Part shown: positions 16,414 through 64,000 of the stretch, piece by piece
Numbering within the stretch: position 1 is the stretch's first letter
How the letters are laid out: each line of letters opens with the position of its first letter
The notes under the pieces: model-generated
What the model was told of the DNA's origin: nothing
Database searches by the model: none
What the model saw: the letters and a program-made list of their open reading frames with translations, nothing else
Translations under genes and position numbers: made by a program
Origin: Narcine bancroftii
Taxonomy: Eukaryota
NCBI RefSeq assembly: GCF_036971445.1
Contig: NC_091480.1
Span: 65,968,001-66,032,000, forward strand
Direction: 5' to 3'
DNA length: 64,000 bases

Positions 16414-16414
16414 T

Positions 16415-27444: not shown

Positions 27445-28344
27445 TTGTTTTGCAGCGGTTGGTGATCCCATTGCCGCGGTCACAAACGAAAAATGATGAT
27501 AAAACATGTTAAACGAAATCAAACGCTACCTTTTCAAAGGGAGAGCTTTCCTTTAAATCTCGCCCAATGACTTCGGAACAGCTAAGAAATATCATGCAAT
27601 ATCATCCCCGAAAAGTGGATTAATCGTGTGAGCATTTGTGTAGACTCAGCTGTTCAAGCCAATCTTCTCAGCTGCTTTATTGCTAGACGCCCTTCCCCAG
27701 ATTTCAAATCGTTTCGTTCATGACCCAAGATTTACAATTAATTTCCAGCAAGTTCTCGAGCATGTACAAGATCCCACACACACATGATATAGATGATTTT
27801 TTTAATGCTTCTCTAGTAAATTCTACTCAAGACTTTTTTTTAATGAGGCGAATATCCGTGGAGAGTGAGAGAGGGGCTTCACACTCGTTTTCTCTGTTCT
27901 TGAACTCATTTTTCGAACCAGGCTCATTACATATTCAGAAAAACCCGGCGACCCCTTCTGATTGGAACAGTGGCGAAATTTCAAATTCATCATCGCTCTT
28001 TGAAGACCCAAACAAAGAGCTCTGCAATCAAATGAAGCCGGTGTTGTAATGAGGTGATATCTTGGGGGTAAGGGAATAGATATAGGCTTGAATGGACTGT
28101 GAATAAAATCCACGTCTACAGCCCGACACGGCCGTGCAGCTCTGGGCAGTCAGGAGCCTGCTTTTCTGGAGCCCATACATTTCTGCTGACGCCAGCGTTG
28201 CCCGCAGCGCCAAGGGCGGTGAGCAGCGCAGGGGAACAGGTTGGAACTCACGGCAGAAGGTGGCGGCCGACTCCTCCTCCCTCTCTCCATTGCTCCAACC
28301 CCATCCTTGTCACCTGATAAGCCGACCAAGCCCTCTGTACAGCT

Positions 28345-28351
28345 CATAAAA
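28345..28351 (+). promoter_or_regulatory. TATA-like box CATAAAA (also at 40072, 51770 and 63504)
   Basis: ~90 bp upstream of an ATG in good Kozak context (ttcaccATG). Confidence 0.55.
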
Positions 28352-28436
28352 GCAGCTCCAGCCTCTCTCGGCTGCACCGGGGACTTGCGATCGCCGGAGC
28401 AGCTTCGCCGCCACAGAGCCCACATCATCTTTCACC

Positions 28437-31400
28437 ATGTCCTTAACAGGGATCAAGATAACAAGAAGCTCCTCCAGCAGATCAGGAGGACAACGAAGCT
28501 CCGGATTGGGACAATGGGGCGGGAGCCGCATGTCTTCCATAGGTGGAGGATTCAGATCGTCTGGAGGATACCAGGGTGCCGGGCGGGCTCAAAGTCTCAT
28601 CCTGTCCAGTTCGAGAAGCTCGAGGTTGTCCCGCCCCTCCGGCATGGGGCTCGGTGTTGGTATGGGGCTCGGTGTTGGCATAGGGCTCGGTGTTGGCATG
28701 AAGACGGCTGTGGATCTGCACAGCCCCTTACCCAAAAATGACCTCAGTCAGCAAGCCATTCGTCTCCAGGAGACGCAGCAGATCACTGGGCTCAACGACC
28801 GGTTTGCCTCTTTCATTGAGCAGGTCAGTGCACCAGCTCTCCCCCGTCGCGCATGTTGGGAAGCCGGGGTTGCGTGTGTCTGGCCAAATGGCGCCTCCTT
28901 TCCTTGCCGGCTCCCTGTCAATCTAACCGTGGGCTCGCTTCCCATCCGCAGGTTTGCGCGCTGGAACTGAAAAATACTGAACTGAAGACCAAACTGGATC
29001 TCCTGCAAAAGCAGGGAACTTCCACATCGAACATCGAGAACATGTTCCAAATGTACATCGCCAACCTCAAGAGGCAACTGGAAGCTCTGGGGCAGGAGAA
29101 AGCGAAGTTCGAGTCGGACCTTGTGCAAATGCAGGCGCTGGTTGAGGACTTTAAGGGCAAGTAAGTGCGTGTGAGGCATTCCCCATTTCATCTGTTCTCG
29201 TCCCGGACGCGCTCACGGGGTCAGAGACATGGAGCAGAAGCCGGCAGATTGCGGCAAGGTTCAATGCATGAGGCACCCCGCTCTCTCCCACTCGGACACT
29301 TGGTTCTGGTGCGGCGGAGCAACAGCAGCGAGTGGGCGTCTGGGGCTTCTCTATGGGACCGGCAAGTGCGCCAAGAGGAGAGGCGCAGGCGAAGCCGAGC
29401 TCTGGAACGCGAGGAGCCTCCCAGAACTCTGAAAGCCAGCGAGATGGACCGGGAGATTCAGGGCAAGGAGGGCGCGCTGGTCTGGGGCGCGGCAGGGCCG
29501 ATACTTCCCACGGAGCAGGGAGGGAAGAGCACTCCCAATGAACCGGGCAGCGTGCGAGGCGTCAGCACAAAGCAGCAGGGTCCCCTCGCAGCAACGGGAC
29601 TCAATGCCTTCTTTGGAAGAGATTTTCCCTAAAGTCTAGATTCCTTTCAGGTACGAGGATGAAATTAACAAGCGGACTGAAATGGAGAACGAGTTTGTCA
29701 TCGTCAAGAAGGTGAGTATGACTGGCGAGCTGTCTGTCCAATATGTCAAGCGCATTTCCGAGCGAGCTTTTCAAAGGCGTGGGTCACGAACATCTGTGGA
29801 CACCGTGGTTGAAGTAAGCAACGACCTTTCACAGCCGTGTGTCCCTTTCCTCTTCAGGATGTCGATGAATCCTACATGAACAAGGTGGAACTGGAGGCGA
29901 GGCTGGAAGCCTTGACCGATGAACTCGAATTCCTCAAGAGTATCTTTGACGAGGTAAACAGGCGACATGGTCCGGCAATTGGTCCCTTGCCGATCCCTTC
30001 AATCTCCTTTCAGTTCTTTTCCTTCCGCCTGTTATGAGTCCAGAGGAGCCCAAAGCCCAGCAGCAAAAGATATTCACCACGACAAGTAGTTACTTCAACA
30101 AAAGTTGTTTTAAATTCTCTTTAAACATGGAAACAGGATCAAACTTTAACGTATCACTATTAACTTAACGCCCCGACTTAAGCCCCTTTTCATTCTGAGC
30201 GCACGTGTACGTAATGTGTGCGTAAATTTAAGAAATGTTCTTTGGAAAGGTAAATGTTTACCACCCAGGAAGGTTCTTGGAGGTTTGCAGAGAGACATGT
30301 GTTGTTCCAGGATTTGCACAATTCAGGTACCACCATTATTCACCTCAATGTCTTTTTGATGAAACTTGCCCCATGTGGGTTCTCTAGATGATAACCTCTT
30401 TCTTTCTGGCCAGCACAGAGTTCCTTTCTGTTCTTCCTATTCCAAAAGAAACATCAGACAGATAGCACTTCCAGCCATCTGCCACACTGGAGCTTCTGTT
30501 TCAGTTTGAACAACCTTCTCCTGGCTGACATTGTTCAGTTTCTCCCTCTCTCTGAGATTCAGAACAGCCAGCCACATGTCATTCTCTCTCTCTCTCTCTC
30601 TCTCTCACTTGCAAAAACCCCTCCTCCTTCTCCAGCAAACAATAGGAGTTCATCTTCTGCTCCCATCTGTTGTTTTAGGTAAACAAACGTCTCAATGACC
30701 TTTGAGTGAGCCCTTTGCAGAGAGGTCAGAAGGCTTGCAAAAATGTCCAACACCATTTCAATTAGCACCTAATTGTGCAATGTGCATTGCATTCTGCAAA
30801 GTTTCTGTAAAGCCACTGAATATGAATGCTTCAGAATTTCAAATAAGATCTGTTTTAAAATGTGTGTATGTATGTAACCTACTCTAATTCTACCAATTTA
30901 TCTCCCCAAAACATCTCCAAATATTCCATCACACCACCCACCTTTAGGAAATCCGCGAGCTACAGGCACAGATCCAGAACACTTCTGTCTGCGTGCAAGT
31001 GGACACTTCTCGTAAACTGGATATGAGTGGGATCATTGAACAGATCAAGAATCAATATAAAATATTGGCAGATGCTAACCGCAAGGAGGCTGAACAATGG
31101 AAAATGATGAAGGTAAGCGTTCGCATCCAAGTCGCCAGGTCCCACCTGCACTGGCAGCTCTGACCTCTGTGTTGGAGGGGGAAACCTTTTGCTGACCAGT
31201 TCTCGATGTGTCCTTGCAGATGCAAGAGCTGAGCATGTCAGGTGGAGGTTTGGAAGCAGACATGCGGGCAATAAAAACAGAATGTAATGATCTGAATCAA
31301 TCCATCCGGAGAATCAGCATGGACATCGAAAATCTTAAAGCCCAGGTAAGCCTCGGAGTGAAAGCATGCAGGATCTGGGTATCAACACCCGCAGTTTGGC

Positions 31401-33604
31401 AAAATACCCGCTTCTCCTCCCAGCCCAAAGCAAACGGCCAAGAGACAACTGAAATCTCCGATCAATTGGGTCGAATTTTGCCATTCCAGGACCCTCTCAC
31501 TCCTTCCGGGGAAAGGCTTAGGATGCTGATCCATTCTCAGCCAATCTACAACACAGCACGCTCAGCATGGTCCTTCTCAAGGAGGGGGTTTGGGTGGGGT
31601 GTGGCAGGTGAGGCAGCGCTCCACGTACAAGTCATCATGTTAACCTTTGTGCCACTTAGCGTTTGAAACTGGAGGCTGATATCAGAGAAGCGGAAGAACG
31701 TGGGGAAATGTCTCTCAAAGGCAGTAAAAGCAGAATTCAAGAACTGCAAGACGCCATCCAGAAAGCCAAGCAAGAGATGACCAAGCAAGTCCAGGAACTC
31801 GAGAATCTGATGCAAGTCAAGCTGGGTCTGGATATGGAGATTCTTGCCTACAGGAAGCTCCTAGAGGGAGAGGAAGCAAGGTAGGACATTGGGTAGTTCC
31901 ACCTTCCATGTGTGACACCTCTACACCAATTCTGTTTTCTTGTTCCAAAGGAGCATGGGTGCAGCAGCCACGTACCTTGTACCCATGTGCTCCGCGGTGT
32001 GCCCCATTTGAGGTTGTGGAGATCCCTGCCATGCTCAGAAAGATGACTGCTTTTTACTATCAGCACTCAGGCGTGAAGAATGAGCAGCTCGGGCAAGGGT
32101 CTGCAGGCTAGAAATCCCCACGGGGTTTCACCCAACCAAGTCAGTGTTCCTTCGAGACGGAAGCAATTTGTAAACCTGAGCAAAATATGCCTCGAAACGT
32201 CCTCAAAAGGCCTGTGGTAACACGAATATTTCTTCTCAACAGGATGGCTGAAGGGATAAGAACACTCAGCATCCAATCAGTGCAACAGCAAGGTAGGCAG
32301 ACGTGTCAAGATTTTACCCAGAGAACACAGCTATATGCATTGCTTTAATGATACTTGTTCATGAGTGTTACCTCACTGGCCTTCATGGTCTCCTGGCCAA
32401 GAGATGGTGTGAACTGAACTCCTCGCTTTTCCCTTCACATCCACCGTCCTTTCCTCAGAAAGCTCACAGTTGAAATCTCACCCCGAACTGAGACTCCACA
32501 TCACGGCCTTCTTCTGCGATCAGTCGTCGGATGGCACCCTGGCTCCCAGCCTGCTGCTTTAACGAGACTCCATGTGTCTGTCTCATGGGCAGCAATCCCT
32601 CCTCATCCTTACCCTACCCGTGTCTCTGCAACAATATACACCGTTGCATTCACCTTCATTCTCCAGTGTTTCTTCTGCCTTCTCTCATTGGGACGGGATG
32701 CCCTCGCCCCTTTTGATGCCTGACTACCATTTGGTCAGCCGTTCATTCCCTCTAATGTCTGCTCTTCCTGTTCTGACATCAAGCCAAGGCATTCATCAGA
32801 GACATAGTAGCAAGGCCATCCACCTCCATCGTCACCTCCTTCCTATAATCTAACTCAGTCCCTAAGTCAGGCTGACCTATTCATTTGTGCTTTTCCCTCT
32901 TCCACATTGAACTGTTGTGCTCCTCTCTTGGAGCCCTGTTCCAATTCTTGTTGGTACATCCATCTCCATCAAAGATCTCTTGTCCTCCTTGTAACTTATT
33001 CCAACTCCCACCACCCGCTTTGTTCCCTGATGTATATTTGTTCCGAACTTGGTAATGTCGCATCTTTCCGATCTCAGTGTCCAACTCTCTCCAGAGCCCT
33101 GTGACTGTCCTTACTTATCTCTGCACTCTACCGCCCTGTTATCTCGGTGCCTTGACTGACGGATACACCTCGAGCTCCCAAATGCTGACATTTCAATGAT
33201 CACCTTTCCAAATCTTACTTCATCTCGGGTTCTCTTTCCTTCTTTTCAAACACCGTCTCCCCGCCCGCCCCCCCCCCCCCCACCCCATGCTTTGATGTGT
33301 GCCGATGTAGCTTAGAGTGAAGCTTGTGTTCGATCGAGTCCTTTGGGGTGCATTGAAGTAGCAAAGTGTCTGCCTTGGTTGTTGCAGTTCTTTCCGAAAT
33401 TGCAGCGTCCTCATTTCAATGGCCTTTCTCCCCCTTCTCTCCCCCACTGCAGCTGATTATGGGCAATTTAATCAATCGAGTAGCAAAATGTCGGGATTTC
33501 TCCAAGGGGCCGGTGAGATGGAAAGCTCTTCCATACAACTCGGAACACCATTAATTACGAAATCGGTGCTGCAATCCAAAAGCCAAGTGCAGAGCACATT
33601 TTAA
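28437..33604 (+). CDS. Divergent type II keratin, array copy 1 (488 aa, 9 exons)
   Basis: Exons 28437-28823, 28952-29160 (209), 29651-29711 (61), 29858-29953 (96), 30948-31112 (165), 31220-31345 (126), 31660-31880 (221), 32243-32292 (50), 33453-33604; all GT-AG; 1467 nt open; [36 protein letters not shown]. Exons 8 and 9 are less certain. Confidence 0.92.
30030..30933 (-). mobile_element. Solo LTR in keratin intron 4 (also 41739-42642 and 53437-54340)
   Basis: TGTTATGAG...CATCACA; both ends match the reverse complement of the 15687/21470 solo-LTR ends; flanks ccgcc/ccacc. Confidence 0.8.
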
Positions 33605-33960
33605 ATCACAAGGGAGAACCTCCTGTCCGCTCTGTCGCTCGTGGCTTCCTTGCCAGGCGCAGCAATTCTTCCTTGTGGTGTTTTTCGTGAAGTGGGTTCA
33701 CTTGGTCACATTCCCTTTCTGCATGACCTTGGAATTCTGCTCAATGCAAGCCGTTGTGCAACATGACATTAACTTCGATCTTAATGAGGACAGAAATGAT
33801 ATTACATTAGTCTGCAGCTTGGGGTTGTGAGCAAATTGGGGAAGTCATCTTTATTTGTTGGTCGTTGTAAAACAAAAACTGACCCCATGTTTTACATGCT
33901 GTATCTGCTCTCTGGTTCTCTCTCTTTCTGTATCGGAATTTACCTTGTTCATCAACTTTG

Positions 33961-33966
33961 AATAAA
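33961..33966 (+). terminator. PolyA signal of the array keratin (also ~45673 and ~57374)
   Basis: AATAAA ~360 bp after the stop codon. Confidence 0.55.
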
Positions 33967-34429
33967 CTGGAATATTTCAATCTGCAACTCTGGATTTTAC
34001 TTTGCTCAAACACATGATGAAATGATCGAAAAGGGCAGGGTTCACATCTTCGTGTCAACATTGAATCATTCCATTAGTTCCTCTCAAGGAAAAAATAGAA
34101 CAGATAGAAGTCTCAAATCAAAATCACGCCCGACCAAGTCGAGCTGCAACAGAAGGGCTCCCTCACCAGAGATAGGCCAGTTTATTATCTGAAAGTACAT
34201 ACATTGACACTGTTCACAATGCAGCTCGATTATCATAAATACTGTGCAACTCGTCAGTGGTGCAGTGAGATACGCACCGTGCCAGAACAATCCCAGTGGG
34301 TCCTGCACACAGAACCAGTCCAAATTGAATGAGGAAAGGACTCTTCATCTCCGGGCTATAAGGGCCTTGCAGGAAATGGCACGGGGACGAATCCAATGCG
34401 TTCTGCAATCTCTAATTTACCAGAATGAC

Positions 34430-35070
34430 TGCAAATTCTCCCACCGCTCCCTGAAATGGCGGGTAAAGAAGTGGTAAGGCATGCTTGCCCTTATTGTTCA
34501 CTGGGTCTAAAATTTGGGAGGTCACGCTGTAGCTGTGTAGCAATATGCTGAGGCCACATTTGGAGAATGCTGTGAAGTTCTGGTCACTGCTGTCCAAGGA
34601 CATTTTCGAGAGGGTGCAGGACATTTTCAGCCGGGAGTTGCCTGCCTTCGAGAGTATGATCTCCAACGGGTTGGACACATTTGGATTGTTTTCATTTGAA
34701 TGTTGGAGGCTGAGGGGCGTCCTGACAGCACCATATCAAATCATAACGGTCATAGATAGGCGAGATGGTCAAAGCCTCCCCACCCCCACCCCCACCCCCA
34801 CCGTGGCAAGGTCCAATATTAGAGAACGCAGCTGTCAGGTGAGACAGGGAAAGGTTAAAAGAGATGTGCGAGGCATGTTCTCCACACAACACACTGAAGA
34901 GCTTTGCTCCGGGAGGCGGTGGAAGCAGGTAGCTGCAGCATTTGAAATAGAAGTGAGGCAGGTACAGGAATAGGACGAGATGGACAGAACAAGACCCACA
35001 TGCAGGCAGGTGGGATGATTGGAAAATTGGCCCGATGATTCCCACACACATCATGGGCTGAACAGCTTCT
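34430..35070 (+). mobile_element. CR1-like LINE 3' fragment (present in each unit)
   Basis: LRPHLENAVKFWS...ERVQ...LFSFECWRLRGVL. Confidence 0.75.
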
Positions 35071-35572
35071 GCTAACTGGTCGATGTACGGAGATTTAGAA
35101 AATCCAGAACAGTGAAGCGTTCAAAATTAAAACGTAGAATTCAATATACACGATCACAAGAACACGTCATTGAAAACGCAAATGAAATGCTTCACTTGCT
35201 TTCAGTTACCCGGGCCCAGTGCCGGGTGCACCGTCTGTACAAACAGTCCCAATACCTGCTCACAGTTCGGGGACTCCCCCTGAGAGTCGGGCCTTTGTAT
35301 TGGCCACATGGTGCCCAGGCAAAGACCTGCCCCCAGCCCACCACCCCATTGGGAAGCTGGATGTGCGCGGTTACTGGTGTGGGGCGAAAGTGGTTGGGAT
35401 TCATTCCCTTCCCAACACAGGACTATCAAAACCCACGGAGCAGGACAGTTCGCCGCAGAGTGACTGTTTTCAGTGCCGGCAGGGATCAGTGTCCGTGGTT
35501 TCCTTCAGTAGCATTCGAGTTGTTGGCTCTCTCGGCATATTCATCAGCCACGCGTCCAACTGACACTCAGTG

Positions 35573-35704
35573 NNNNNNNNNNNNNNNNNNNNNNNNNNNN
35601 NNNNNNNNNNNNNNNNNNNNNNNNNNNNNNNNNNNNNNNNNNNNNNNNNNNNNNNNNNNNNNNNNNNNNNNNNNNNNNNNNNNNNNNNNNNNNNNNNNNN
35701 NNNN
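35573..35704. other. N-run, 132 nt (homologous runs 47285-47414, 130 nt; 58986-59132, 147 nt)
   Basis: Same flanks ...gacactcagtg / ccatatctac... in all three full units. Confidence 0.95.
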
Positions 35705-36289
35705 CCATATCTACTCTTCATGCCACCCTTTGCATATTACGCTGTCCGGGGGCTTAAAACCTACCGCATTCTTGGGGTCCCTTGCTTGGCCAGGTGAATT
35801 GCCCCCTGTCTGACCAAGGGTCCCTCCACCTGACCACGGATCATTCCTCCTGACCACATCCACACACTTGCGCGCACACACACACGCATTCACAGACGCC
35901 CACACACACACACACACACACACGCACATAAGTTTTTCCAGTCCGTGTGTTCAATCCACCTTCTCAGAGCCCCTTTCCCAGCCAGGAGACTCGACGCCCC
36001 TCCACATCACCTCTCACTAAGGGTACACCACTGGATACACACAAACACCAAGGTGACTGCACCCATGTGATGTGCTGGGCAGGGCTGTCCGTGAGGTAGA
36101 CAGGCCATTCTGTGATTAGCGGGCATTGCGATCACAGTCGGGATAGTGGTATGGTTGGACTCATTGGTGAAGGTCAAATGGGCTTGAGGTCAGAGGTTAG
36201 TGTGGGGTCATTGGGGAAGTTTGTGCTTTGTGAGGTCACTGTCCAGGATTTGAACGATCTGTTGAGGGAGCTGACTGTGGTTTTAATTG

Positions 36290-36790
36290 ATGGTTCTGAT
36301 AGTTTTTCCTGATGGGAGCAGCTGGAAGATGTGAGGTGCATTGTGGTGGGGTCTTCCCTGATTTTGAGAGGCCGCTTTAAATACCCATCTCAGTAAATCA
36401 CATTAATGGGAGTGTGCTCCCAGTAATCCTCGCTGCTGCTTTTATGGTCCAGTGGATTTACCTCTGCCCTGTCGCCACGTAGGAACTGTCCGGCCCTGTG
36501 ATACAGCCGGCCTGGACATACTCCATAGAGCTTCTGCAGGAAGTTGACATGATGGTGGGTGATAGTCTTTCCCGTTTAAGCCTTCTAAAGGAGTGCGGTC
36601 GCTGTCGCACCTTCCTGACAAGTGAGGAGATATTGAGTACCCACGATAGGTCATGAGTCATGTGAGCTCCAAAAAACTTGGTGCTCTCCACTCTCGCCAC
36701 TCTCAAGCTATTAACATGCAGTGGAGGCTGATCGTTCCTGGTCCTCCCGAAGGCCACAATCATCTCCTTTGTCTTGATGTACGTTGACTT
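36290..36790 (-). mobile_element. Rex1/Babar-like LINE fragment (present in each unit)
   Basis: MIVAFGRT...VARVESTKFFGAHM...LVRKVRQRPHSFRRLK; homologous to 12000-12250. Confidence 0.75.
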
Positions 36791-36904
36791 AATGGTAAGA
36801 GTGTGGCAGTGGGGTGTAATGACTCAGATTAGAGGCCTGTGTCTAATGGTGCGCTGCAGGATTCAGCACTGGCCCCACTCTTGTCTCTTATCAATTTGAA
36901 TGCC

Positions 36905-38490: not shown

Positions 38491-38499
38491 ACGTCTTCA

Positions 38500-39030
38500 A
38501 TGCCGACGATACCAAAAGTTCGTGCTATAACTGAGAGTGGAGAAGGTGATCCCGGATTACAACAGGATGCAGATGAACTGGACAAGCAGAGCAAGGAACG
38601 GCAGATGGGATTTCACTCGGAAAGTGCGAGGTGTTGCATTGAGGTGGATTAATTAATCCAGGGCAAGAATTACATGGTGAATGGAAGGGCGCTGGGGCGT
38701 GCTGCAGCACAAGGAGGCTTAGGACGACAGCCAGATATTTCCATGGAGGCAGTGACCCAAGAGGACAGGGTAGCGAAGAAGGTGTTTTCCACGCTTGCCT
38801 TCTTTGGTTAGGGAAGTAAGTCCAGGTGCAGGGATGTCATGTTCCGACTCCACAGGACGTTGGGGAGACCAGAGCTGGAGTGTGGTGTGCAATTCTGGCC
38901 ACCCAGCGATTGGAAAGATTGAATTGGAATGGGTGCAGAACATTCATGAGAATGTTACTGGAGCTGGCATGATAATGAGAGGATGGGTGGGCTGGGGCTT
39001 TCCCCTTGAAGTGCAGGGAACTTTTACAGT
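38500..39030 (+). mobile_element. CR1-like fragment (present in each unit)
   Basis: gccgacgataccaaa (ADDTK), tggtgtgcaattctggccacc, ttggaatgggtgcaga. Confidence 0.65.
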
Positions 39031-51300: not shown

Positions 51301-51861
51301 GATTTAAAGGGGACCTGTGGGGCACAGTTGTCATACAAAGGGTGGTGGGGAAATAGAAGGAGCGTCCAGAGACAGGAAAATTGTAAGGTGCACGAACGTC
51401 CATGGACAGGAAAGGTTTGAAGGCACATGGCTAAAGGCAGGTCAATGGGAGGAGATTGGAGTGTGCTGGGGACATCTGTAACCCAACCGCGGGGCTGGAT
51501 AGGCTGAGAAGAATGGCCCCTTAACCCGTCTCTTCGTCGCCTCCAGCCCGACACGGCCGTGCAGCTCTGGGCAGTCAGGAGCCTGCTTTTCTGGAGCCCA
51601 TACATTTCTGCTGACGCCAGCGTTGCCCGCAGCGCCAAGGGCGGTGAGCAGCGCAGGGGAACAGGTTGGAACTCACGGCAGAAGGTGGCGGCCGACTCCT
51701 CCTCTCTCTCTCCATTGCTCCAACCCCATCCTTGTCACCTGATAAGCCGACCAAGCCCTCTGTACAGCTCATAAAAGCAGCTCCAGCCTCTCTCGGCTGC
51801 ACCGGGGACTTGCGATCGCCGGAGCAGCTTCGCCGCCACAGAGCCCACATCATCTTTCACC

Positions 51862-54800
51862 ATGTCCTTAACAGGGATCAAGATAACAAGAAGCTCCTCC
51901 AGCAGATCAGGAGGACAACGAAGCTCCGGATTGGGACAATGGGGCGGGAGCCGCATGTCTTCCATAGGTGGAGGATTCAGATCGTCTGGAGGATACCAGG
52001 GTGCCGGGCGGGCTCAAAGTCTCATCCTGTCCAGTTCGAGAAGCTCGAGGTTGTCCCGCCCCTCCGGCATGGGGCTCGGTGTTGGTATGGGGCTCGGTGT
52101 TGGCATGAAGACGGCTGTGGATCTGCACAGCCCCTTACCCAAAAATGACCTCAGTCAGCAAGCCATTCGTCTCCAGGAGACGCAGCAGATCACTGGGCTC
52201 AACGACCGGTTTGCCTCTTTCATTGAGCAGGTCAGTGCACCAGCTCTCCCCCGTCGCGCATGTTGGGAAGCCGGGGTTGCGTGTGTCTGGCCAAATGGCG
52301 CCTCCTTTCCTTGCCGGCTCCCTGTCAATCTAACCGTGGGCTCGCTTCCCATCCGCAGGTTTGCGCGCTGGAACTGAAAAATACTGAACTGAAGACCAAA
52401 CTGGATCTCCTGCAAAAGCAGGGAACTTCCACATCGAACATCGAGAACATGTTCCAAATGTACATCGCCAACCTCAAGAGGCAACTGGAAGCTCTGGGGC
52501 AGGAAAAAGCGAAGTTCGAGTCGGACCTTGTGCAAATGCAGGCGCTGGTTGAGGACTTTAAGGGCAAGTAAGTGCGTGTGAGGCATTCCCCATTTCATCT
52601 GTTCTCGTCCCGGACGCGCTCACGGGGTCAGAGACATGGAGCATAAGCCGGCAGATTGCGGCAAGGTTCAATGTATGAGGCACCCCGCTCTCTCCCACTC
52701 GGACACTTGGTTCTGGTGCGGCGGAGCAACAGCAGCGAGTGGGCGTCTGGGGCTTCTCTATGGGACCGGCAAGTGCGCCAAGAGGAGAGGCGCAGGCGAA
52801 GCCGAGCTCTGGAACGCGAGGAGCCTCCCAGAACTCTGAAAGCCAGCGAGATGGACCGGGAGATTCAGGACAAGGAGGGCGCGCTGGTCTGGGGCGCGGC
52901 AGGGCCGATACTTCCCACGGAGCAGGGAGGGAAGAGCACTCCCAATGAACTGGGCAGCGTGCGAGGCGTCAGCACAAAGCAGCAGGGTCCCCTCGCAGCA
53001 ACGGGACTCAATGCCTTCTTTGGAAGAGATTTTCCCTAAAGTCTAGATTCCTTTCAGGTACGAGGATGAAATTAACAAGCGGACTGAAATGGAGAACGAG
53101 TTTGTCATCGTCAAGAAGGTGAGTATGACTGGCGAGCTGTCTGTCCAATATGTCAAGCGCATTTCCGAGCGAGCTTTTCAAAGGCGTGGGTCACGAACAT
53201 CTGTGGACACCATGGTTGAAGTAAGCAACGACCTTTCACAGCCGTGTGTCCCTTTCCTCTTCAGGATGTCGATGAATCCTACATGAACAAGGTGGAACTG
53301 GAGGCGAGGCTGGAAGCCTTGACCGATGAACTCGAATTCCTCAAGAGTATCTTTGACGAGGTAAACAGGCGACATGGTCCGGCAATTGGTCCCTTGCCGA
53401 TCCCTTCAATCTCCTTTCAGTTCTTTTCCTTCCGCCTGTTATGAGTCCAGAGGAGCCCAAAGCCCAGCAGCAAAAGATATTCACCACGACAAGTAGTTAC
53501 TTCAACAAAAGTTGTTTTAAATTCTCTTTAAACATGGAAACAGGATCAAACTTTAACGTATCACTATTAACTTAACGCCCCGACTTAAGCCCCTTTTCAT
53601 TCTGAGCGCACGTGTACGTAATGTGTGCGTAAATTTAAGAAATGTTCTTTGGAAAGGTAAATGTTTACCACCCAGGAAGGTCCTTGGAGGTTTGCAGAGA
53701 GACATGTGTTGTTCCAGGATTTGCACAATTCAGGTACCACCATTATTCACCTCAATGTCTTTTTGATGAAACTTGCCCCATGTGGGTTATCTAAATGATA
53801 ACCTCTTTCTTTCTGGCCAGCACAGTGTTCCTTTCTGTTCTTCCTATTCCAAAAGAAACATCAGACAGATAGCACTTCCAGCCATCCGCCACACTGGAGC
53901 TTCTGTTTCAGTTTGAACAACCTTCTCCTGGCTGACATTGTTCAGTTTCTCCCTCTCTCTGAGATTCAGAACAGCCAGCCACATGTCCTTCTCTCTCTCT
54001 CTCTCTCTCTCTCACTTGCAAAAACCCCTCGTCCTTCTCCAGCAAACAATAGGAGTTCATCTTCTGCTCCCATCTGTTGTTTTAGGTAAACAAACGTCTC
54101 AATGACCTTTGAGTGAGCCCTTTGCAGAGAGGTCAGAAGGCTTGCAAAAATGTCCAACACCATTTCAATTAGCACCTAATTGTGCAATGTGCATTGCATT
54201 CTGCAAAGTTTCTGTAAAGCCACTGAATATGAATGCTTCAGAATTTCAAATAAGATCTGTTTTAAAATGTGTGTATGTATGTAACCTACTCTAATTCTAC
54301 CAATTTATCTCCCCAAAACATCTCCAAATATTCCATCACACCACCCACCTTTAGGAAATCCGCGAGCTACAGGCACAGATCCAGAACACTTCTGTCTGCG
54401 TGCAAGTGGACACTTCTCGTAAACTGGATATGAGTGGGATCATTGAACAGATCAAGAATCAATATAAAATATTGGCAGATGCTAACCGCAAGGAGGCTGA
54501 ACAATGGAAAATGATGAAGGTAAGCGTTCGCATCCAAGTCGCCAGGTCCCACCTGCACTGGCAGCTCTGACCTCTGTGTTGGAGGGGGAAACCTTTTGCT
54601 GACCAGTTCTCGATGTGTCCTTGCAGATGCAAGAGCTGAGCATGTCAGGTGGAGGTTTGGAAGCAGACATGCGGGCAATAAAAACAGAATGTAATGATCT
54701 GAATCAATCCATCCGGAGAATCAGCATGGACATCGAAAATCTTAAAGCCCAGGTAAGCCTCGGAGTGAAAGCATGCAGGATCTGGGTATCAACACCCGCA

Positions 54801-57016
54801 GTTTGGCAAAATACCCGCTTCTCCTCCCAGCCCAAAGCAAACGGCCAAGAGACGACTGAAATCTCCGATCAATTGGGTCGAATTCTGCCATTCCAGGACC
54901 CTCTCACTCCTTCCGGGGAAAGGCTTAGGATGCTGATCCATTCTCAGCCAATCTACAACACAGCACGCTCAGCATGGTCCTTCTCAAGGAGGGGGTTTGG
55001 GTGGAGTGTGGCAGGTGAGGCAGCGCTCCACGTACAAGTCATCATGTTAACCTTTGTGCCACTTAGCGTATGAAACTGGAGGCTGATATCAGAGAAGCGG
55101 AAGAACGTGGGGAAATGTCTCTCAAAGGCAGTAAAAGCAGAATTCAAGAACTGCAAGACGCCATCCAGAAAGCCAAGCAAGAGATGACCAAGCAAGTCCA
55201 GGAACTCGAGAATCTGATGCAAGTCAAGCTGGGTCTGGATATGGAGATTCTTGCCTACAGGAAGCTCCTAGAGGGAGAGGAAGCAAGGTAGGACATTGGG
55301 TAGTTCCACCTTCCATGTGTGACACCTCTACACCAATTCTGTTTTCTTGTTCCAAAGGAGCATGGGTGCAGCAGCCACGTACCTTGTACCCATGTGCTCC
55401 GCGGTGTGCCCCATTTGAGGTTGTGGAGATCCCTGCCATGCTCAGAAAGATGACTGCTTTTTACTATCAGCACTCAGGCGTGAAGAATGAGCAGCTCGGG
55501 CAAGGGTCTGCAGGCTAGAAATCCCCACGGGGTTTCACCCAACCAAGTCAGTGTTCCTTCGAGACGGAAGCAATTTGTAAACCTGAGCAAAATATGCCTC
55601 GAAACGTCCTCGAAAGGCCTGTGGTAACACGAATATTTCTTCTCAACAGGATGGCCGAAGGGATAAGAACACTCAGCATCCAATCAGTGCAACAGCAAGG
55701 TAGGCAGACGTGTCAAGATTTTACCCAGAGAACACAGCTATATGCATTGCTTTAATGATACTTGTTCATGAGTGTTACCTCACTGGCCTTCATGGTCTCC
55801 TGGCCAAGAGATGGTGTGAACTGAACTCCTCGCTTTTCCCTTCACATCCACTGTCCTTTCCTCAGAAAGCTCACAGTTGACATCTCACCCCTAACTGAGA
55901 CTCCACATCGCGGCCTTCTTCTGCGATCAGTCGTCGGATGGCACCCTGGCTCCCAGCCTGCTGCTTTAACGAGACTCCATGTGTCTGTCTCATGGGCAGC
56001 AATCCCTCCTCATCCTTACCCTACCCGTGTCTCTGCAACAATATACACCGTTGCATTCACCTTCATTCTCCAGTGTTTCTTCTGCCTTCTCTCATTGGGA
56101 CGGGATGCCCTCGCCCCTTTTGATGCCTGACTACCATTTGGTCAGCCGTTCATTCCCTCTAATGTCTGCTCTTCCTGTTCTGACATCAAGCCAAGGCATT
56201 CATCAGAGACATAGTAGCAAGGCCATCCACCTCCATCGTCACCTCCTTCCTATAATCTAACTCAGTCCCTAAGTCAGGCTGACCTATTCATTTGTGCTTT
56301 TCCCTCTTCCACATTGAACTGTTGTGCTCCTCTCTTGGAGCCCTGTCCCAATTCTTGTTGGTCCATCCATCTCCATCAAAGATCTCTTGTCCTCCTTGTA
56401 ACTTATTCCAACTCCCACCACCCGCTTTGTTCCCTGATGTATATTTGTTCCGAACTTGGTAATGTCGCATCTTTCCGATCTCAGTGTCCAACTCTCTCCA
56501 GAGCCCTGTGACCGTCCTTACTTATCTCTGCACTCTACCGCCCTGTTATCTCGGTGCCTTGACTGACGGATGCACCTCGAGCTCCCAAATGCTGACATTT
56601 CAGTGATCACCTTTCCAAATCTTACTTCATCTCGGGTTCCCTTTCCTTCTTTTCAAACACCGTCTCCCCGCCCGCCACCCACCCCCCACCCCCACCCCAT
56701 GCTTTGATGTGTGCGGATGTAGCTTAGAGTGAAGCTTGTGTTCGATCGAGTCCTTTGGGGTGCATTGAAGTAGCAAAGTGTCTGCCTTGGTTGTTGCAGT
56801 TCTTTCCGAAATTGCAGCGTCCTCATTTCAATGGCCTTTCTCCCCCTTCTCTCCCCCACTGCAGCTGATTATGGGCAATTTAATCAATCGAGTAGCAAAA
56901 TGTCGGGATTTCTCCAAGGGGCCGGTGAGATGGAAAGCTCTTCCATACAACTCGGAACACCATTAATTACGAAATCGGTGCTGCAATCCAAAAGCCAAGT
57001 GCAGAGCACATTTTAA
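51862..57016 (+). CDS. Divergent type II keratin, array copy 3 (482 aa)
   Basis: Exons 51862-52230, 52359-52567, 53058-53118, 53265-53360, 54355-54519, 54627-54752, 55067-55287, 55650-55699, 56865-57016; intact; L>M at 55070. Confidence 0.92.
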
Positions 57017-59328
57017 ATCACAAGGGAGAACCTCCTGTCCGCTCTGTCGCTCGTGGCTTCCTTGCCAGGCGCAGCAATTCTTCCTTGTGGTGTTTTTCGT
57101 GAAGTGGGTTCACTTGGTCACATTCCCTTTCTGCATGACCTTGGAATTCTGCTCAATGCACGCCGTTGTGCAACATGACATTAACTTCGATCTTAATGAG
57201 GGCAGAAATGATATTACATTAGTCTGCAGCTTGGGGTTGTGAGCAAATTGGGGAAGTCATCTTTATTTGTTGGTCGTTGTAAAACAGAAACTGACCCCAT
57301 GTTTTACATGCTGTATCTGCTCTCTGGTTCTCTCTCTTTCTGTATCGGGAATTTACCTTGTTCATCAACTTTGAATAAACTGGAATATTTCAATCTGCAA
57401 CTCTGCATTTTACTTTGATCAAACACATGATGAAATGATCGAAAAGGGCAGGGTTCACATCTTCGTGTCAACATTGAATCATTCCATTAGTTCCTCTCAA
57501 GGAAAAAATAGAACAGATAGAAGTCTCAAATCAAAATCACGCCCGACCAAGTCGAGCTGCAACAGAAGGGCTCCCTCACCAGAGATAGGCCAGTTTATTA
57601 TCTGAAAGTACATACATTGACACTGTTCACAATGCAGCTCGATTATCATAAATACTGTGCAGCTCGTCAGTGGTGCAGTGAGATACGCACCGGGCCAGAA
57701 CAATCCCAGTGGGTCCTGCACACAGAACCAGTCCAAATTGAATGAGGAAAGGACTCTTCATCTCCGGGCTATAAGGGCCTTGCAGGAAATGGCACGGGGA
57801 CGAATCCAATGCGTTCTGCAATCTCTAATTTACCAGAATGACTGCAAATTCTCCCACCGCTCCCTGAAATGGCGGGTAAAGAAGTGGTAAGGCATGCTTG
57901 CCCTTATTGTTCACTGGGTCTAAAATTTGGGAGGTCACGCTGTAGCTGTGTAGCAATATGCTGAGGCCACATTTGGAGAATGCTGTGAAGTTCTGGTCAC
58001 TGCTGTCCAAGGACATTTTCGAGAGGGTGCAGGACATTTTCAGCCGGGATTGCCTGCCTTCGAGAGTATGATCTCCAACGGGTTGGACACATTTGGATTG
58101 TTTTCATTTGAATGTTGGAGGCTGAGGGGCGTCCTGACAGCACCATATCAAATCATAACGGTCATAGATAGGCGAGATGGTCAAAGCCTCCCCACCCCCA
58201 CCCCCACCCCCACCGTGGCAAGGTCCAATATTAGAGAACGCAGCTGTCAGGTGAGACAGGGAAAGGTTAAAAGAGATGTGCGAGGCATGTTCTCCACACA
58301 ACACACTGAAGAGCTTTGCTCCGGGAGGCGGTGGAAGCAGGTAGCTGCAGCATTTGAAATAGAAGTGAGGCAGGTACAGGAATAGGACGAGATGGACAGA
58401 ACAAGACCCACATGCAGGCAGGTGGGATGATTGGAAAATTGGCCCGATGATTCCCACACACATCATGGGCTGAACAGCTTCTGCTAACTGGTCGATGTAC
58501 GGAGATTTAGAAAATCCAGAACAGTGAAGCGTTCAAAATTAAAACGTAGAATTCAATATACACGATCACAAGAACACGTCATTGAAAACGCAAATGAAAT
58601 GCTTCACTTGCTTTCAGTTACCCGGGCCCAGTGCCGGGTGCACCGTCTGTACAAACAGTCCCAATACCTGCTCACAGTTCGGGGACTCCCCCTGAGAGTC
58701 GGGCCTTTGTATTGGCCACATGGTGCCCAGGCAAAGACCTGCCCCCAGCCCACCACCCCATTGGGAAGCTGGATGTGCGCGGTTACTGGTGTGGGGCGAA
58801 AGTGGTTGGGATTCATTCCCTTCCCAACACAGGACTATCAAAACCCACGGAGCAGGACAGTTCGCCGCAGAGTGACTGTTTTCAGTGCCGGCAGGGATCA
58901 GTGTCCGTGGTTTCCTTCAGTAGCATTCGAGTTGTTGGCTCTCTCGGCATATTCATCAGCCCCGCGTCCAACTGACACTCAGTGCNNNNNNNNNNNNNNN
59001 NNNNNNNNNNNNNNNNNNNNNNNNNNNNNNNNNNNNNNNNNNNNNNNNNNNNNNNNNNNNNNNNNNNNNNNNNNNNNNNNNNNNNNNNNNNNNNNNNNNN
59101 NNNNNNNNNNNNNNNNNNNNNNNNNNNNNNNNCCATATCTACTCTTCATGCCACCCTTTGCATATTACGCTGTCCGGGGGCTTAAAACCCACCGCATTCT
59201 TGGGGTCCCTTGCTTGGCCAGGTGAATTGCCCCCTGTCTGACCAAGGGTCCCTCCACCTGACCACGGATCATTCCTCCTCACCACATCCACACACTTGCG
59301 CGCACACACACACGCATTCACAGACGCC

Positions 59329-59360
<32 letters not shown>

Positions 59361-62300
59361 TTAGTTTTTCCAGTCCGTGTGTTCAATCCACCTTCTCAGA
59401 GCCCCTTTCCCAGCCAGGAGACTCGACGCCCCTCCACATCACCTCTCACTAAGGGTACACCACTGGATACACACAAACACCAAGGTGACTGCACCCATGT
59501 GATGCGCTGGGCAGGGCTGTCCGTGAGGTAGACAGGCCATTCTGTGATTAGCGGGCATTGCGATCACAGTCGGGATAGTGGTATGGTTGGGCTCATTGGT
59601 GAAGGTCAAATGGGCTTGAGGTCAGAGGTTAGTGTGGGGTCATTGGGGAAGTTCGTGCTTTGTGAGGTCACTGTCCAGGATTTGAACGATCTGTTGAGGG
59701 AGCTGACTGTGGTTTTAATTGATGGTTCTGATAGTTTTTCCTGATGGGAGCAGCTGGAAGATGTGAGGTGCATTGTGGTGGGGTCTTCCCTGATTTTGAG
59801 AGGCCGCTTTAAATACCCATCTCAGTAAATCACATTAATGGGAGTGTGCTCCCAGTAATCCTCGCTGCTGCTTTTATGGTCCAGTGGATTTACCTCTGCC
59901 CTGTCGCCACGTAGCAACTGTCCGGCCCTGTGATACAGCCGGCCTGGACATACTCCATAGAGCTTCTGCAGGAAGTTGACATGATGGTGGGTGATAGTCT
60001 TTCCCGTTTAAGCCTTCTAAAGGAGTGCGGTCGCTGTCGCACCTTCCTGACAAGTGAGGAGATACTGAGTACCCACGATAGGTCATGAGTCATCTGAGCT
60101 CCAAAAAACTTGGTGCTCTCCACTCTCGCCACTCTCAAGCTATTAACATGCAGTGGAGGCTGATCGTTCCTGGTCCTCCCGAAGGCCACAATCATCTCCT
60201 TTTTCTTGATGTACGTTGACTTAATGGTAAGAGTGTGGCAGTGGGGTGTAATGACTCAGATTAGAGGCCTGTGTCTAATGGTGCGCTGCAGGATTCAGCA
60301 CTGGCCCCACTCTTGTCTCTTATCAATTTGAATGCCTTCTTTTCTTTGAATATTTTATTTATTCAACATATATAATGTCAAGAAGTTAATATAATACCAT
60401 AGTTACATAATAGTATCTTAACAAATATATGCTGAAACTATATAAAAAACTAAAATATAAAATAAAAAAGACTAACTACTACAAATAAAAACCGTACACC
60501 TACTAATCCATTCACCTGAACTAATCTAATCCCTAAACTGAAATATATGCCATTTCATTATAAAATGATTACAAATATTTAATTCGGATTGTATCAGTTG
60601 ACAATCAGAGACCTCAAAAACACCATAAAATTACACTTTCAGAGAAAACTTCACTGATCAGGAAAAATAAATTAATAAAATCATACTTTTAATTTCATTA
60701 TTTTAGCATAGGGACCCCAAATTTTTTAAAACAAGAAAAGTTATTCCTTAAATTAGAAGCAATTTTTTCTCATGGAATACAGCTTTGTATTTCAGCATGC
60801 CGTCTATCTAATGTTAATGAAACATCGGATTTCCATGTCACGGTAACACATTTCCTCGCTTTTACTAAAATCAACTTAACAAATTTTAATTGCAAATCTG
60901 ACAGCGATAATGTAGGAGTGACACTTTCAAAATGTCCCAACAAAAATAATTCACGATTTAAAGGAAAGTTCACTCCTGTGATCCGTGGCAAACCCCCAAA
61001 GGGTTGACCTTTGAACAAGACCACGTGGAATGAAGAAAGGTACCAATATCCGTTCCACATCTAAAACATTGATCCGATAAATCCAATCTCCATCGACTCA
61101 ATTTCTGAGGAGTAAATATGCAGCTGATGTAAAACATTATAATGAAATCATCTATCTCTTCCATTAATAGGATTTGTCAGAACCTCTTGACACAAATTTT
61201 GCCGGTTTTGTAGATCCATAATCATGTCCAAACCTCGTTCCCATCTTTCTTTTGATTTAAGCAATCCTAATTTAGGTGTCAGTTCTTGTAACAAAATATA
61301 TGCAATTGAAATAAATTTTTAAATCATTCCATCAACCATAATTTGTTCCAAATTTGAAAGATCTTTTGAATAGTTTCCGATCCTAGTTTCTCTCTTTAGA
61401 AAACCCTTCGATTGAAAATAACTAATTAATGTATTTTAAGGTACATCATATTCAATCATTAATTGACCTTAACACCCCCTCCTCATTTCCCTTCTAATAC
61501 CATCTATTTGAAAAAGGAATCTCTTTTGTAAAAATCAACAAGGGATTAATTAATGGCGTTTTCAATGAAAGAATATTTCCACCAGTTTCCAAGTTTATTT
61601 AATTCCAAATATTCAACCAATGTTTTAATATTGGGCCTTCCCTGTCTATTACACTAGATTTAGAAAGACATTTATAAATAAACTCGTCTCCTATCTTATT
61701 TAATTCGATATCCACCCATGATGGACTAATGTTAACGGACATAAAAACTAACAAGCTTAATTGTGCTGCTTTGTACCAATTCTTAAAATTGGGACGTTGT
61801 CTTCCTCCTTGATCATATTTCCATGTTAATTTTACAACGACTTTCTTACCATCCTCACTTTCCAAAGAAATCCCTGAACTTGCTTATTTAAATCTTGAAA
61901 AAATTTTGAGGTTAAAGTGTGAACGTCTTCAATGCCGACGATACCAAAAGTTCGTGCTATACCTGAGAGTGGAGAAGGTGATCCCGGATTACAACAGGAT
62001 GCAGATGAACTGGACAAGCAGAGCAAGGAACGGCAGATGGGATTTCACTCGGAAAGTGCGAGGTGTTGCATTGAGGTGGATTAATTAATCCAGGGCAAGA
62101 ATTACATGGTGAATGGAAGGTCGCTGGGGCGTGCTGCAGCACAAGGAGGCTTGGGACGACAGCCAGATATTTCCATGGAGGCAGTGACCCAAGAGGACAG
62201 GGTAGCGAAGAAGGTGTTTTCCACGCTTGCCTTCTTTGGTTAGGGAAGTAAGTCCAGGTGCAGGGATGTCATGTTCCGACTCCACAGGACGTTGGGGAGA

Positions 62301-63595
62301 CCAGAGCTGGAGTGTGGTGTGCAATTCTGGCCACCCAGCGATTGGAAAGATTGAATTGGAAATGGGTGCAGAACATTCATGAGAATGTTACTGGAGCTGG
62401 CATGATAATGAGAGGATGGGTGGGCTGGGGCTTTCCCCTTGAAGTGCAGGGAACTTTTACAGTATAGTCTTACTATTCTAATATTTCAACTTCTATTCTA
62501 ACTTATATTTATATCAATATGCTCCTTGGTCCTGGAGAAAAGCTATTTCGTCTTTACTGTGCGAACACGTGTTGAACGTTGATGAAGGTGACTTGACTTG
62601 ACTTGACGAGAGGGGCAAGTGGAGGAGACGAGCTGAGGGGACTCTGCGGCCGAGGGACCAGGTCATGCGGCGGGCTGCTGGCGACCGAGGCGAGGAACCC
62701 GCGGAAGGGAACGGCGATTCAAAGAGGTGCCGATGGCGCTGAAGGGTCCCTGACCATGTCGGAGATCTGGAGCTCGAAGTGCCAATGGCTTGGACTGGAT
62801 TCTGTGTGGCTGCGGGGGCAGGGGAAGCGCCGGAAGCGAATCTAAGGGGATGGGGGGTGGGGTGGGGGTGATTCTCTCCCTATAACTGTAAGTCTGACTG
62901 TAAGATCTATCAGAGGCGCTTTGGCAATTACTGCCGGTGGCGAATCTGTCTGCCTTGCAGCAAGCAAAAGGACATTTCATGTAATAGGACACTCTTTTAC
63001 CACCAGCATGATCAGTTGAAGCTAGAATCTTGAAAGATTTAAAGGGGACCTGTGGGGCACAGTTGTCATACAAAGGGTGGTGGGGAAATAGAAGGAGCGG
63101 CCAGAGACAGGAAAATTGTAAGGTGCACGAACGTCCATGGACAGGAAAGGTTTGAAGGCACATGGCTAAAGGCAGGTCAATGGGAGGAGATTGGAGTGTG
63201 CTGGGGACATCTGTAACCCAACCGCGGGGCTGGATGGGCTGAGAAGAATGGCCCCTTCCCCGTCTCTTCGTCGCCTCCAGCCCGACACGGCCGTGCAGCT
63301 CTGGGCAGTCAGGAGCCTGCTTTTCTGGAGCCCACACATTTCTGCTGACGCCAGCGTTGCCCGCAGCGCCAAGGGCGGTGAGCAGCGCAGGGGAACAGGT
63401 TGGAACTCACGGCAGAAGGTGGCGGCCGACTCCTCCTCCCTCTCTCCATTGCTCCAACCCCATCCTTGTCACCTGATAAGCCGACCAAGCCCTCTGTACA
63501 GCTCATAAAAGCAGCTCCAGCCTCTCTCGGCTGCACCGGGGACTTGCGATCGCCGGAGCAGCTTCGCCGCCACAGAGCCCACATCATCTTTCACC

Positions 63596-63982
63596 ATGTC
63601 CTTAACAGGGATCAAGATAACAAGAAGCTCCTCCAGCAGATCAGGAGGACAACGAAGCTCCGGATTGGGACAATGGGGCGGGAGCCGCATGTCTTCCATA
63701 GGTGGAGGATTCAGATCGTCTGGAGGATACCAGGGTGCCGGGCGGGCTCAAAGTCTCATCCTGTCCAGTTCGAGAAGCTCGAGGTTGTCCCGCCCCTCCG
63801 GCATGGGGCTCGGTGTTGGTATGGGGCTCGGTGTTGGCATAGGGCTCGGTGTTGGCATGAAGACGGCTGTGGATCTGCACAGCCCCTTACCCAAAAATGA
63901 CCTCAGTCAGCAAGCCATTCGTCTCCAGGAGACGCAGCAGATCACTGGGCTCAACGACCGGTTTGCCTCTTTCATTGAGCAG
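63596..63982 (+). CDS. Divergent type II keratin, array copy 4, exon 1 (rest beyond the window)
   Basis: ATG at 63596, donor GT at 63983; three head repeats as in copy 1. Confidence 0.88.
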
Positions 63983-64000
63983 GTCAGTGCACCAGCTCTC

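What the first reader, a model, noticed from the sequence alone, without database searches (positions are those of the whole stretch)
28119..64000. Ampliconic tandem array of an intact, atypical type II keratin gene (>=4 x 11.7 kb)
Seen: at least four head-to-tail units, near-identical even in introns and dead TE relics. The three complete copies keep all splice sites and an open 9-exon CDS. The only coding differences I found are an 18-bp head indel, one L>M and two synonymous changes. Known: keratin clusters grow by tandem duplication, but paralogs are normally well diverged. Inference: this is a very recent or actively homogenised dosage amplification of one specialised keratin, probably copy-number variable and possibly serving a lineage-specific tissue needing bulk filament protein.
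Basis: partly seen in the sequence, partly recalled or inferred. Interest (0 to 1): 0.8.

Follow-up and report, generated by a model that had tools for sequence, protein, structure and literature searches.

The report
Electric-ray keratin gene tandem array
An electric ray carries at least four nearly identical, intact, head-to-tail copies of one skin-type keratin gene that swap sequence with each other, a real but only moderately surprising way of raising the dose of a structural protein.

Summary
Confirmed: three complete 11.7-kb units and the start of a fourth. They are 99.4–99.8% identical, and each complete unit has an open 9-exon type II keratin gene. The coding differences are exactly as reported.

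The neighbouring keratin matches a Narcine bancroftii protein exactly in exons 5–9, so this is an electric ray. The arrayed gene belongs to a fast-evolving chondrichthyan lineage with a glycine-rich head and without the K8-type tail, present in every sampled shark and ray. It is not a Narcine novelty.

Three distinct junction spacers require at least three copies on one chromosome. The differences form mosaic tracts (15 runs against 37.5 expected), amino-acid changes are depleted (1 against about 8), and copy 3 is GC-biased (30:8). This fits concerted evolution under purifying selection better than one very recent burst. A 488/490-identical pair on one manta chromosome suggests the gene is also amplified elsewhere.

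Expression, tissue and true copy number are untested. Inner copies carry only 318 bp of the first copy's upstream sequence.

The parts
28119..39845 (+). Array unit 1 (edge copy): 318 bp 5' flank, keratin gene, 6.2-kb 3' spacer of degenerate LINE/SINE-like relics
39846..51543 (+). Array unit 2
51544..63277 (+). Array unit 3 (most divergent; 46 of 72 SNPs are private to it and GC-biased)
63278..64000 (+). Array unit 4, partial (5' flank, exon 1 at 63596-63982 with GT donor); same head type as unit 1
28437..33604 (+). Keratin copy 1 CDS, 488 aa: exons 28437-28823, 28952-29160, 29651-29711, 29858-29953, 30948-31112, 31220-31345, 31660-31880, 32243-32292, 33453-33604
   Evidence: Pfam Filament in exons 2, 5, 7; collinear 80%-identical spliced relative P0001
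40164..45316 (+). Keratin copy 2 CDS, 482 aa: exons 40164-40532, 40661-40869, 41360-41420, 41567-41662, 42657-42821, 42929-43054, 43369-43589, 43952-44001, 45165-45316
51862..57016 (+). Keratin copy 3 CDS, 482 aa (carries L>M): exons 51862-52230, 52359-52567, 53058-53118, 53265-53360, 54355-54519, 54627-54752, 55067-55287, 55650-55699, 56865-57016
28345..28352 (+). TATA-like CATAAAAG, 92 bp before the ATG; also at 40072, 51770, 63504
   Evidence: motif match only
33961..33966 (+). Candidate polyadenylation signal AATAAA about 357 bp after the stop; also at 45673, 57374
   Evidence: motif match only
28641..28700 (+). 18-bp head-domain tandem repeat (GMGLGV): 3.3 copies in units 1 and 4, 2.3 in units 2 and 3
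28118..28119 (.). Left breakpoint of the array; no significant homology between the 800 bp before it and the 800 bp before internal junctions
   Evidence: local score 29, shuffled max 35
1783..7539 (+). Upstream neighbour: exons 5-9 of a different type II keratin (short head, K8-type IETKNGK tail), identical to N. bancroftii protein P0138; not amplified in the window

Best explanation
A real tandem array of at least three, and as assembled at least four, whole-gene units of the fast-evolving, glycine-rich-head type II keratin in the keratin cluster of an electric ray (Narcine bancroftii or a very close relative). Mechanism: a first duplication by non-homologous joining placed 3' spacer next to a point 318 bp before the ATG (shown: breakpoint without flanking homology). 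Unequal crossing-over and gene conversion between units then expanded the array and keep it homogeneous, leaving kilobase-long mosaic tracts (shown) and probably GC-biased conversion in inner units (inferred). Purifying selection removes amino-acid changes from the copies (shown statistically on few sites). The copies therefore probably all make protein and raise the dose of one type II partner for keratin filaments (inferred). The most likely tissue is stratified epithelium or skin (inferred from the E-type anatomy). Step-wise estimates: array real 0.9; homogenised by exchange 0.85; several copies expressed 0.7; epidermal 0.55.
For: Three junction-bearing spacers differ from one another, which two haplotypes of a two-copy locus cannot supply. 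Only 9 indel events against 72 substitutions. Units 2 and 3 share 20 alleles against unit 1, and unit 4 shares the head indel with unit 1, so these are not random errors. The SNP pattern runs unchanged across the N run, 8 of 8 SNPs on each side. Mosaic: 15 runs against 37.5 expected, 0 of 100,000 shuffles as low; U1-U2 share a 4,149-bp identical tract and U2-U3 a 1,983-bp tract. Non-synonymous SNPs: 1 observed against 7.8 expected from the non-coding rate (Poisson P=0.004). Clustering-aware rotation test: 3 of 35 gene-span SNPs lie in CDS against a mean of 9.9, P=0.035. Unit 3 private alleles are G/C at 30 of 38 weak-strong sites (P=0.0005). Outside TE copies give unit 1's allele at 8 of the 9 SNPs they cover (1 gap; one site is in a microsatellite), so inner-copy alleles look derived. 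Unit CpG o/e is 0.54 against 0.41 in the left flank (P=0.01). The tree places the gene in a 23-row chondrichthyan orthogroup (89/87; 22 elasmobranch rows 100/99). A spliced 446-aa relative on a 1,859-nt contig (P0001, 80% identical) shows the orthologue is transcribed in a related ray.
Against: No reads, depth or expression data. Inner copies have only 318 bp of unit 1's upstream sequence and lack the CpG-rich 26.6-28.1 kb stretch with an AP-1 motif at 27423, so they might be weakly expressed; the right end of the array is outside the window, so which upstream region is ancestral is unknown. The selection test rests on 3 coding SNPs. No annotated protein for the array gene came back from the exon 1 search or the P0001 search (which scored 8,000 candidates and listed 120), although the neighbour's protein is in that database. 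All copies carry R131C at a coil-1A position that is R in 48 of 49 other keratins. Polarisation rests on two linked tracts. The tissue assignment has no direct test.
Confidence: 0.6

Rival explanations
1. A neutral or nearly neutral lineage-specific segmental amplification. One copy does the work. The inner copies, with truncated upstream regions, are silent or redundant and stay intact only because they are young or overwritten by conversion.
For: Only 318 bp of shared 5' flank. Divergence is as low as that of young TE copies in the same window (LTR pair 98.9%, LINE pair 99.1%). No annotated protein was retrieved.
Against: The deficit is specific to coding sites, which uniform overwriting would not give. 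Unit 3 has 44 private non-coding SNPs but 1 conservative amino-acid change. The TATA-like box, CpG-rich exon 1-intron 2 region and polyA motif lie inside every complete unit.
Confidence: 0.2
2. Assembly artefact: haplotypes of a one- or two-copy locus were concatenated (false duplication), with the N runs marking joins.
For: One N run per complete unit at the same place. Copy divergence of 0.2-0.6% is on the scale of allelic diversity (general knowledge).
Against: A single-copy locus has no tail-to-head junction, yet three distinct gap-free junctions are present. The N runs lie more than 4 kb from the junctions, end at the same homologous base, differ in length (132, 130, 147) and do not break SNP phase, which suggests masking inside contiguous sequence rather than scaffold joins. 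Inflation of the copy number above three is not excluded.
Confidence: 0.07
3. The amplification serves an electric-ray novelty, such as electrocyte cytoskeleton or electrosensory canal epithelium and gel, rather than general skin.
For: The host is an electric ray. A Torpedo paper says keratin dominates electrocyte architecture (PMC3156643, passage). Keratin peptides were reported in skate ampullary gel (cited in PMC9671328, passage).
Against: That statement cites Fox and Richardson 1978 and Zakon and Unguez 1999; I recall the latter as teleost electric-fish work. The table passage seen lists only K1C9 and K1H1 as keratins, no type II name. A non-electric manta also has near-identical copies.
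Confidence: 0.1

Closest known systems
[quoted passage not shown]
   Same: Same clade. Rod 56-70% identical.
   Different: Present here as at least four >99%-identical 11.7-kb units. Copy numbers in the other species could not be resolved. I recall Q9YH07 as the epidermal shark keratin SstK1 of Schaffeld 1998, but that paper was not held and UniRef labels it keratin 8, so this is unverified.
Vertebrate type II keratin cluster 2 and lineage-specific keratin expansions (reedfish krt48 x13; amphibian adult epidermal subclusters; horse Krt2 x3; opossum Krt10 x3; human KRT6A/B/C)
   Same: Tandem growth of one keratin gene inside a cluster (10.1101/2020.05.06.063123, parts 1-3 of 5 read; PMC6367960, passages).
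   Different: The reedfish and amphibian expansions were reported with relaxed selection and diversification. Here whole units, including introns and spacers, are >99% identical and amino-acid change is depleted, which points to dose rather than diversification.
Concertedly evolving tandem arrays (KRTAP1: 10.1101/282418, abstract; histone and rDNA arrays: recalled)
   Same: Within-genome copies are more alike than orthologues; conversion tracts; a GC-bias signal.
   Different: KRTAP1 homogenises coding regions only, with diverged flanks. Here the entire gene-plus-spacer unit is homogeneous, as in ampliconic or rDNA-like arrays.

Membership tests
Type II keratin gene | Intermediate-filament rod between non-helical head and tail | tested here: met
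   Pfam PF00038 above cut-off in exons 2, 5, 7; 312-aa rod aligns without gaps to type II keratins
Type II keratin gene | Closer to type II than to type I or III proteins | tested here: met
   Exon 7 vs PDB: K5 3.7e-17, K1 1.5e-16, vimentin 1.2e-12, K10 1.1e-5, K14 2.3e-4
Type II keratin gene | Nine exons with rod exon sizes 61/96/165/126/221 (pattern recalled) | tested here: met
   387 or 369/209/61/96/165/126/221/50/152; neighbour exons 5-7 are 165/126/221
Type II keratin gene | Obligate heterodimer and filament with a type I keratin | not testable with these tools
   No type I keratin found in 1-28400 by tblastn; partner unknown
Keratin 8 (simple-epithelial) orthologue | Conserved C-terminal motif (V/I)K(K/M/T)IET(K/R)DG(K/R)xxSE | tested here: not met
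   Array tail ends ...[19 protein letters not shown]; the motif is kept by the upstream neighbour and by teleost and snake K8
Keratin 8 (simple-epithelial) orthologue | Groups with bony-vertebrate K8 in a tree | tested here: inconclusive
   Both chondrichthyan orthogroups form one clade (100/99) apart from teleost and tetrapod K8; deeper nodes open; the head-to-head krt18 partner was not sampled
Keratin 8 (simple-epithelial) orthologue | Head-to-head with krt18 | tested here: not met
   Upstream gene is a same-strand type II keratin; no type I hit before the array
Epidermal (E-type) type II keratin | Long glycine-rich head, fast evolution | tested here: met
   Head 111 aa, 21% Gly against 65 aa, 4% in the neighbour; mean rod identity 63.9% against 80.8%, lower in 45 of 45 species pairs. 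The trait as an E-type marker is recalled
Epidermal (E-type) type II keratin | Expression in stratified epithelia | not testable with these tools
   No expression data
Concertedly evolving tandem gene array | Within-genome copies far more alike than orthologues | tested here: met
   481-482 of 482 residues between copies against 80% to the nearest outside protein
Concertedly evolving tandem gene array | Mosaic conversion or crossover tracts | tested here: met
   15 runs against 37.5 expected, 0 of 100,000 shuffles as low
Concertedly evolving tandem gene array | Array older than the divergence between copies (present in related species) | tested here: inconclusive
   Mobula birostris pair 488/490 on one chromosome; cluster members could not be listed; no genomic context for relatives
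Concertedly evolving tandem gene array | Copy-number variation among individuals | not testable with these tools
   Needs reads

The most novel reading that the evidence does not exclude
Sharks and rays have a long-lived, ampliconic epidermal keratin locus. One fast-evolving type II gene is kept in multiple copies whose head and rod exons are repeatedly homogenised within each lineage (with GC-biased conversion) while last exons vary. This would be a dose-based counterpart to the diversifying keratin 'blooms' of tetrapods, pushed to whole-unit amplification in the denticle-free electric rays (naked skin recalled). Hints: the manta pair; M. birostris and M. hypostoma rods are 310/312 identical while exon 9 is unrelated; cluster sizes of 12, 12, 7, 6 and 5 for this gene in Cetorhinus, Callorhinchus, Chiloscyllium, Stegostoma and Pristiophorus.
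Probability: 0.3. Interest if true: 0.62.

Novelty: new variant of a known kind. Interest (0 to 1): 0.42.

Why it matters
Published surveys treat fish keratin repertoires as small and stable and tie expansions to land adaptation and diversification (10.1101/2020.05.06.063123; PMC8733776, passages). A selected, homogenised multi-copy keratin array in a ray would be a counter-example in which dose, not diversity, is gained. Copy-diagnostic SNPs make the dosage question directly testable by RNA-seq. It also warns that gene counts and 'K8-like' labels for cartilaginous fish may hide arrays. The mechanism itself is textbook, so the surprise is moderate. None of my 10 literature searches listed a paper describing this array; subscription papers and bioRxiv supplements were not searchable.

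Tried and rejected
Second gene or structured RNA inside the unit: the stop-to-stop ORFs of the 3' spacer look like degenerate LINE fragments or noise (judged by eye), and Rfam found 0 matches in 26000-40000.

Homologous-repeat origin of the first duplication: no similarity between the left flank and the junction flank above shuffles.

gBGC at synonymous sites: GC3 of exons 5-7 is 0.524 in the array against 0.512 in the neighbour, so no signal. Introns 5-8 are GC-richer, 0.51 against 0.44. The weak/strong bias appears only in unit 3 (unit 1 9:9, unit 2 1:3).

Ancient paralogues defined by tail type: the rod tree rejects a 'tail B' clade (p-AU 7e-37), but the exon 9 tree does not recover it either (3 changes), so it stays unshown. 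Alternative last exons remain possible. No tail-B exon was found within unit 1.

Electric-organ link: literature support is weak.

Copy numbers in other species from cluster membership: the query could not be made, so this stays open.

The search of 50%-identity representatives gave unnamed hits and nothing closer; its rows were not used.

Trees left out unnamed hits other than P0001, fused or partial models (such as P0003, P0011, P0150) and most teleost rows: 49 of 233 fetched proteins were used.

No structure or complex prediction was run; it would not be decisive for a keratin rod. Prokaryotic and phage collections were not used, being irrelevant here.
Full report
Observation. Self-BLAST shows one long direct repeat family from about 28.1 kb to the window end. 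With the boundary set at 28119, the units are 11,727, 11,698 and 11,734 bp plus 723 bp of a fourth. Junctions are gap-free and share a spacer end that is unrelated to the unique flank left of unit 1. Pairwise differences are 26 of 11,565, 52 of 11,566 and 66 of 11,575 sites. The three complete units each give a 9-exon gene with 8 of 8 GT-AG introns and an open frame of 488, 482 and 482 aa. Not mentioned in the finding: each complete unit has one run of 130-147 N at the same place in the 3' spacer.

Organism and gene. Upstream, exons 5-9 of another type II keratin match a Narcine bancroftii protein (P0138) exactly within the exons, so the window is from this electric ray or a very close relative. 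The arrayed protein has a Pfam Filament rod and is closest to K5 and K1 among solved structures. Its only hit with exon 1 as query, among 4,290 candidates, was an unnamed 446-aa protein on a 1,859-nt contig. That protein is 80% identical and collinear through the tail, which confirms the exon model and shows the orthologue is transcribed in a related ray. A 51-row tree places both in a chondrichthyan orthogroup with members from sawfish, mantas, stingray, skates, many sharks and elephant shark, sister to the neighbour's orthogroup. This lineage evolves faster than the neighbour in 45 of 45 species pairs (rod 63.9% against 80.8%), has a longer glycine-rich head, and lacks the K8 tail motif that the neighbour keeps. 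It thus looks like an epidermal-type keratin rather than K8. I recall the Scyliorhinus member Q9YH07 as the epidermal SstK1, but that paper was not held and the database label says keratin 8. The protein is not abnormal for its group: 4 of 91 near-invariant positions differ, against 0-8 in orthologues.

Real or artefact. A single-copy locus has no tail-to-head junction; here three junction-bearing spacers differ from each other, so at least one chromosome of a diploid carries three or more copies. Differences are mostly substitutions (72 SNPs, 9 indel events) and are shared between copies in tracts, which errors would not produce. The N runs lie more than 4 kb from junctions, end at the same homologous base, and do not interrupt SNP phase (8 of 8 SNPs on each side). 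They look like masks in contiguous sequence. An inflated copy number cannot be excluded without reads.

How it evolves. SNP patterns come in tracts: 15 runs against 37.5 expected, none of 100,000 shuffles as low. Units 2 and 3 match over the 5' part of the gene, units 1 and 2 share 4,149 identical bases further on, and unit 4 has unit 1's head type. This is the signature of unequal crossing-over and gene conversion. Unit 3's private alleles are G/C in 30 of 38 weak-strong sites (P=0.0005), and outside TE copies give unit 1's allele at 8 of 9 covered SNPs. The unit's CpG o/e (0.54) exceeds the flank's (0.41). GC-biased conversion in inner units is plausible, but GC3 shows no excess and units 1 and 2 show no bias. 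At 7e-10 per base per generation (PMC10587355, abstract) the divergences equal 1.6-4.1 million generations, so near-identity need not mean very recent.

Function. One conservative amino-acid change was seen against 7.8 expected (P=0.004); a rotation test that respects clustering gives P=0.035. No frameshift or splice loss occurs. That supports selection on several copies and hence a dosage role, on few sites. Against it, each inner unit carries only 318 bp of unit 1's upstream sequence, though with the TATA-like box and the CpG-rich first exons, and no annotated protein for these copies was retrieved. The tissue is untested. Skin is the best guess from protein anatomy. An electric-organ role has weak support: the Torpedo paper's keratin statement rests on two cited works I could not read (PMC3156643, passages).

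Elsewhere. Mobula birostris has two 490-aa proteins of this orthogroup that differ by two substitutions and share one chromosome length. Same-length substitutions cannot be splice forms, so these are probably separate loci. M. hypostoma has a rod 310/312 identical to them but an unrelated exon 9 resembling skate and zebra-shark tails; the tail tree did not resolve this. Cluster sizes for this gene are larger than for the neighbour in Cetorhinus (12 against 1), Pristiophorus (5:1), Heptranchias (3:1), Rhinoraja (3:1) and Heterodontus (4:2). They are equal in Chiloscyllium (7:7) and Rhincodon (1:1), and smaller in Leucoraja (1:4), S. torazame (2:7) and M. hypostoma (1:4). Members may be isoforms or other species and could not be listed, so this is only a hint.

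Comparison with what is known. Cluster 2 with several type II genes is described for elephant shark, and a 13-gene krt48 expansion with relaxed selection for reedfish (10.1101/2020.05.06.063123, parts 1-3 of 5). Triplications of Krt2 in horse and Krt10 in opossum are reported (PMC6367960, passages). Concerted evolution of coding regions is known for KRTAP1 (10.1101/282418, abstract). PMC8733776 (passages) states that keratin blooms occur in land animals but not fishes. Passages of PMC1896152, PMC2174949, PMC10707392, PMC9671328, PMC11266302 and PMC11703226 were also seen and added little. None of 10 searches listed a paper on this array. bioRxiv supplements, which hold the elephant-shark gene table, were not visible.

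Verdict. This is a real, homogenised, selected tandem array of a chondrichthyan-wide epidermal-type keratin in an electric ray: a new variant of a known kind, interest 0.42. If arrays of this gene prove general in sharks and rays, it would merit about 0.6.

Noticed in passing
window 16238-20993: Near-full-length Gypsy-type LTR retrotransposon: 176-bp LTRs differing at 2 sites, gag-protease-RT-RNaseH-integrase ORFs in pieces (Pfam RVT_1, rve). A young insertion between the two keratin genes.
   Followed up: partly
window 28952-28957 (and 40661, 52359): All three complete copies encode Cys at coil-1A position 131, where 48 of 49 other type II keratins have Arg; a lineage-specific change spread through the array.
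   Followed up: partly
3' spacer of units 1-3: One run of 130-147 N per complete unit at the same homologous position, with phase-continuous flanks; looks like masking rather than scaffold gaps.
   Followed up: partly
window 1783-7539: Neighbouring short-head type II keratin with a K8-type tail forms its own conserved elasmobranch orthogroup (100/100) on a long stem branch; its tissue and partner are unknown.
   Followed up: partly
P0004/P0005/P0009 (Mobula): Near-identical rods with two unrelated last exons across Mobula species; either alternative terminal exons or paralogues with converted rods.
   Followed up: partly
window 8723-9550 and 21759-22089: Two 99%-identical copies of a LINE 3' end (RT tail-like ORF), pointing to recent LINE activity.
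   Followed up: no
window 26600-28118: CpG-rich stretch (o/e 0.73-0.84) with an AP-1 motif at 27423, just left of the breakpoint and present only before unit 1; a candidate distal promoter.
   Followed up: partly
window 28437-33604 against the protein database: The neighbour's N. bancroftii protein is in the database, but no protein for the arrayed gene was retrieved; the array may be unannotated, perhaps because of repeat masking (speculation).
   Followed up: no
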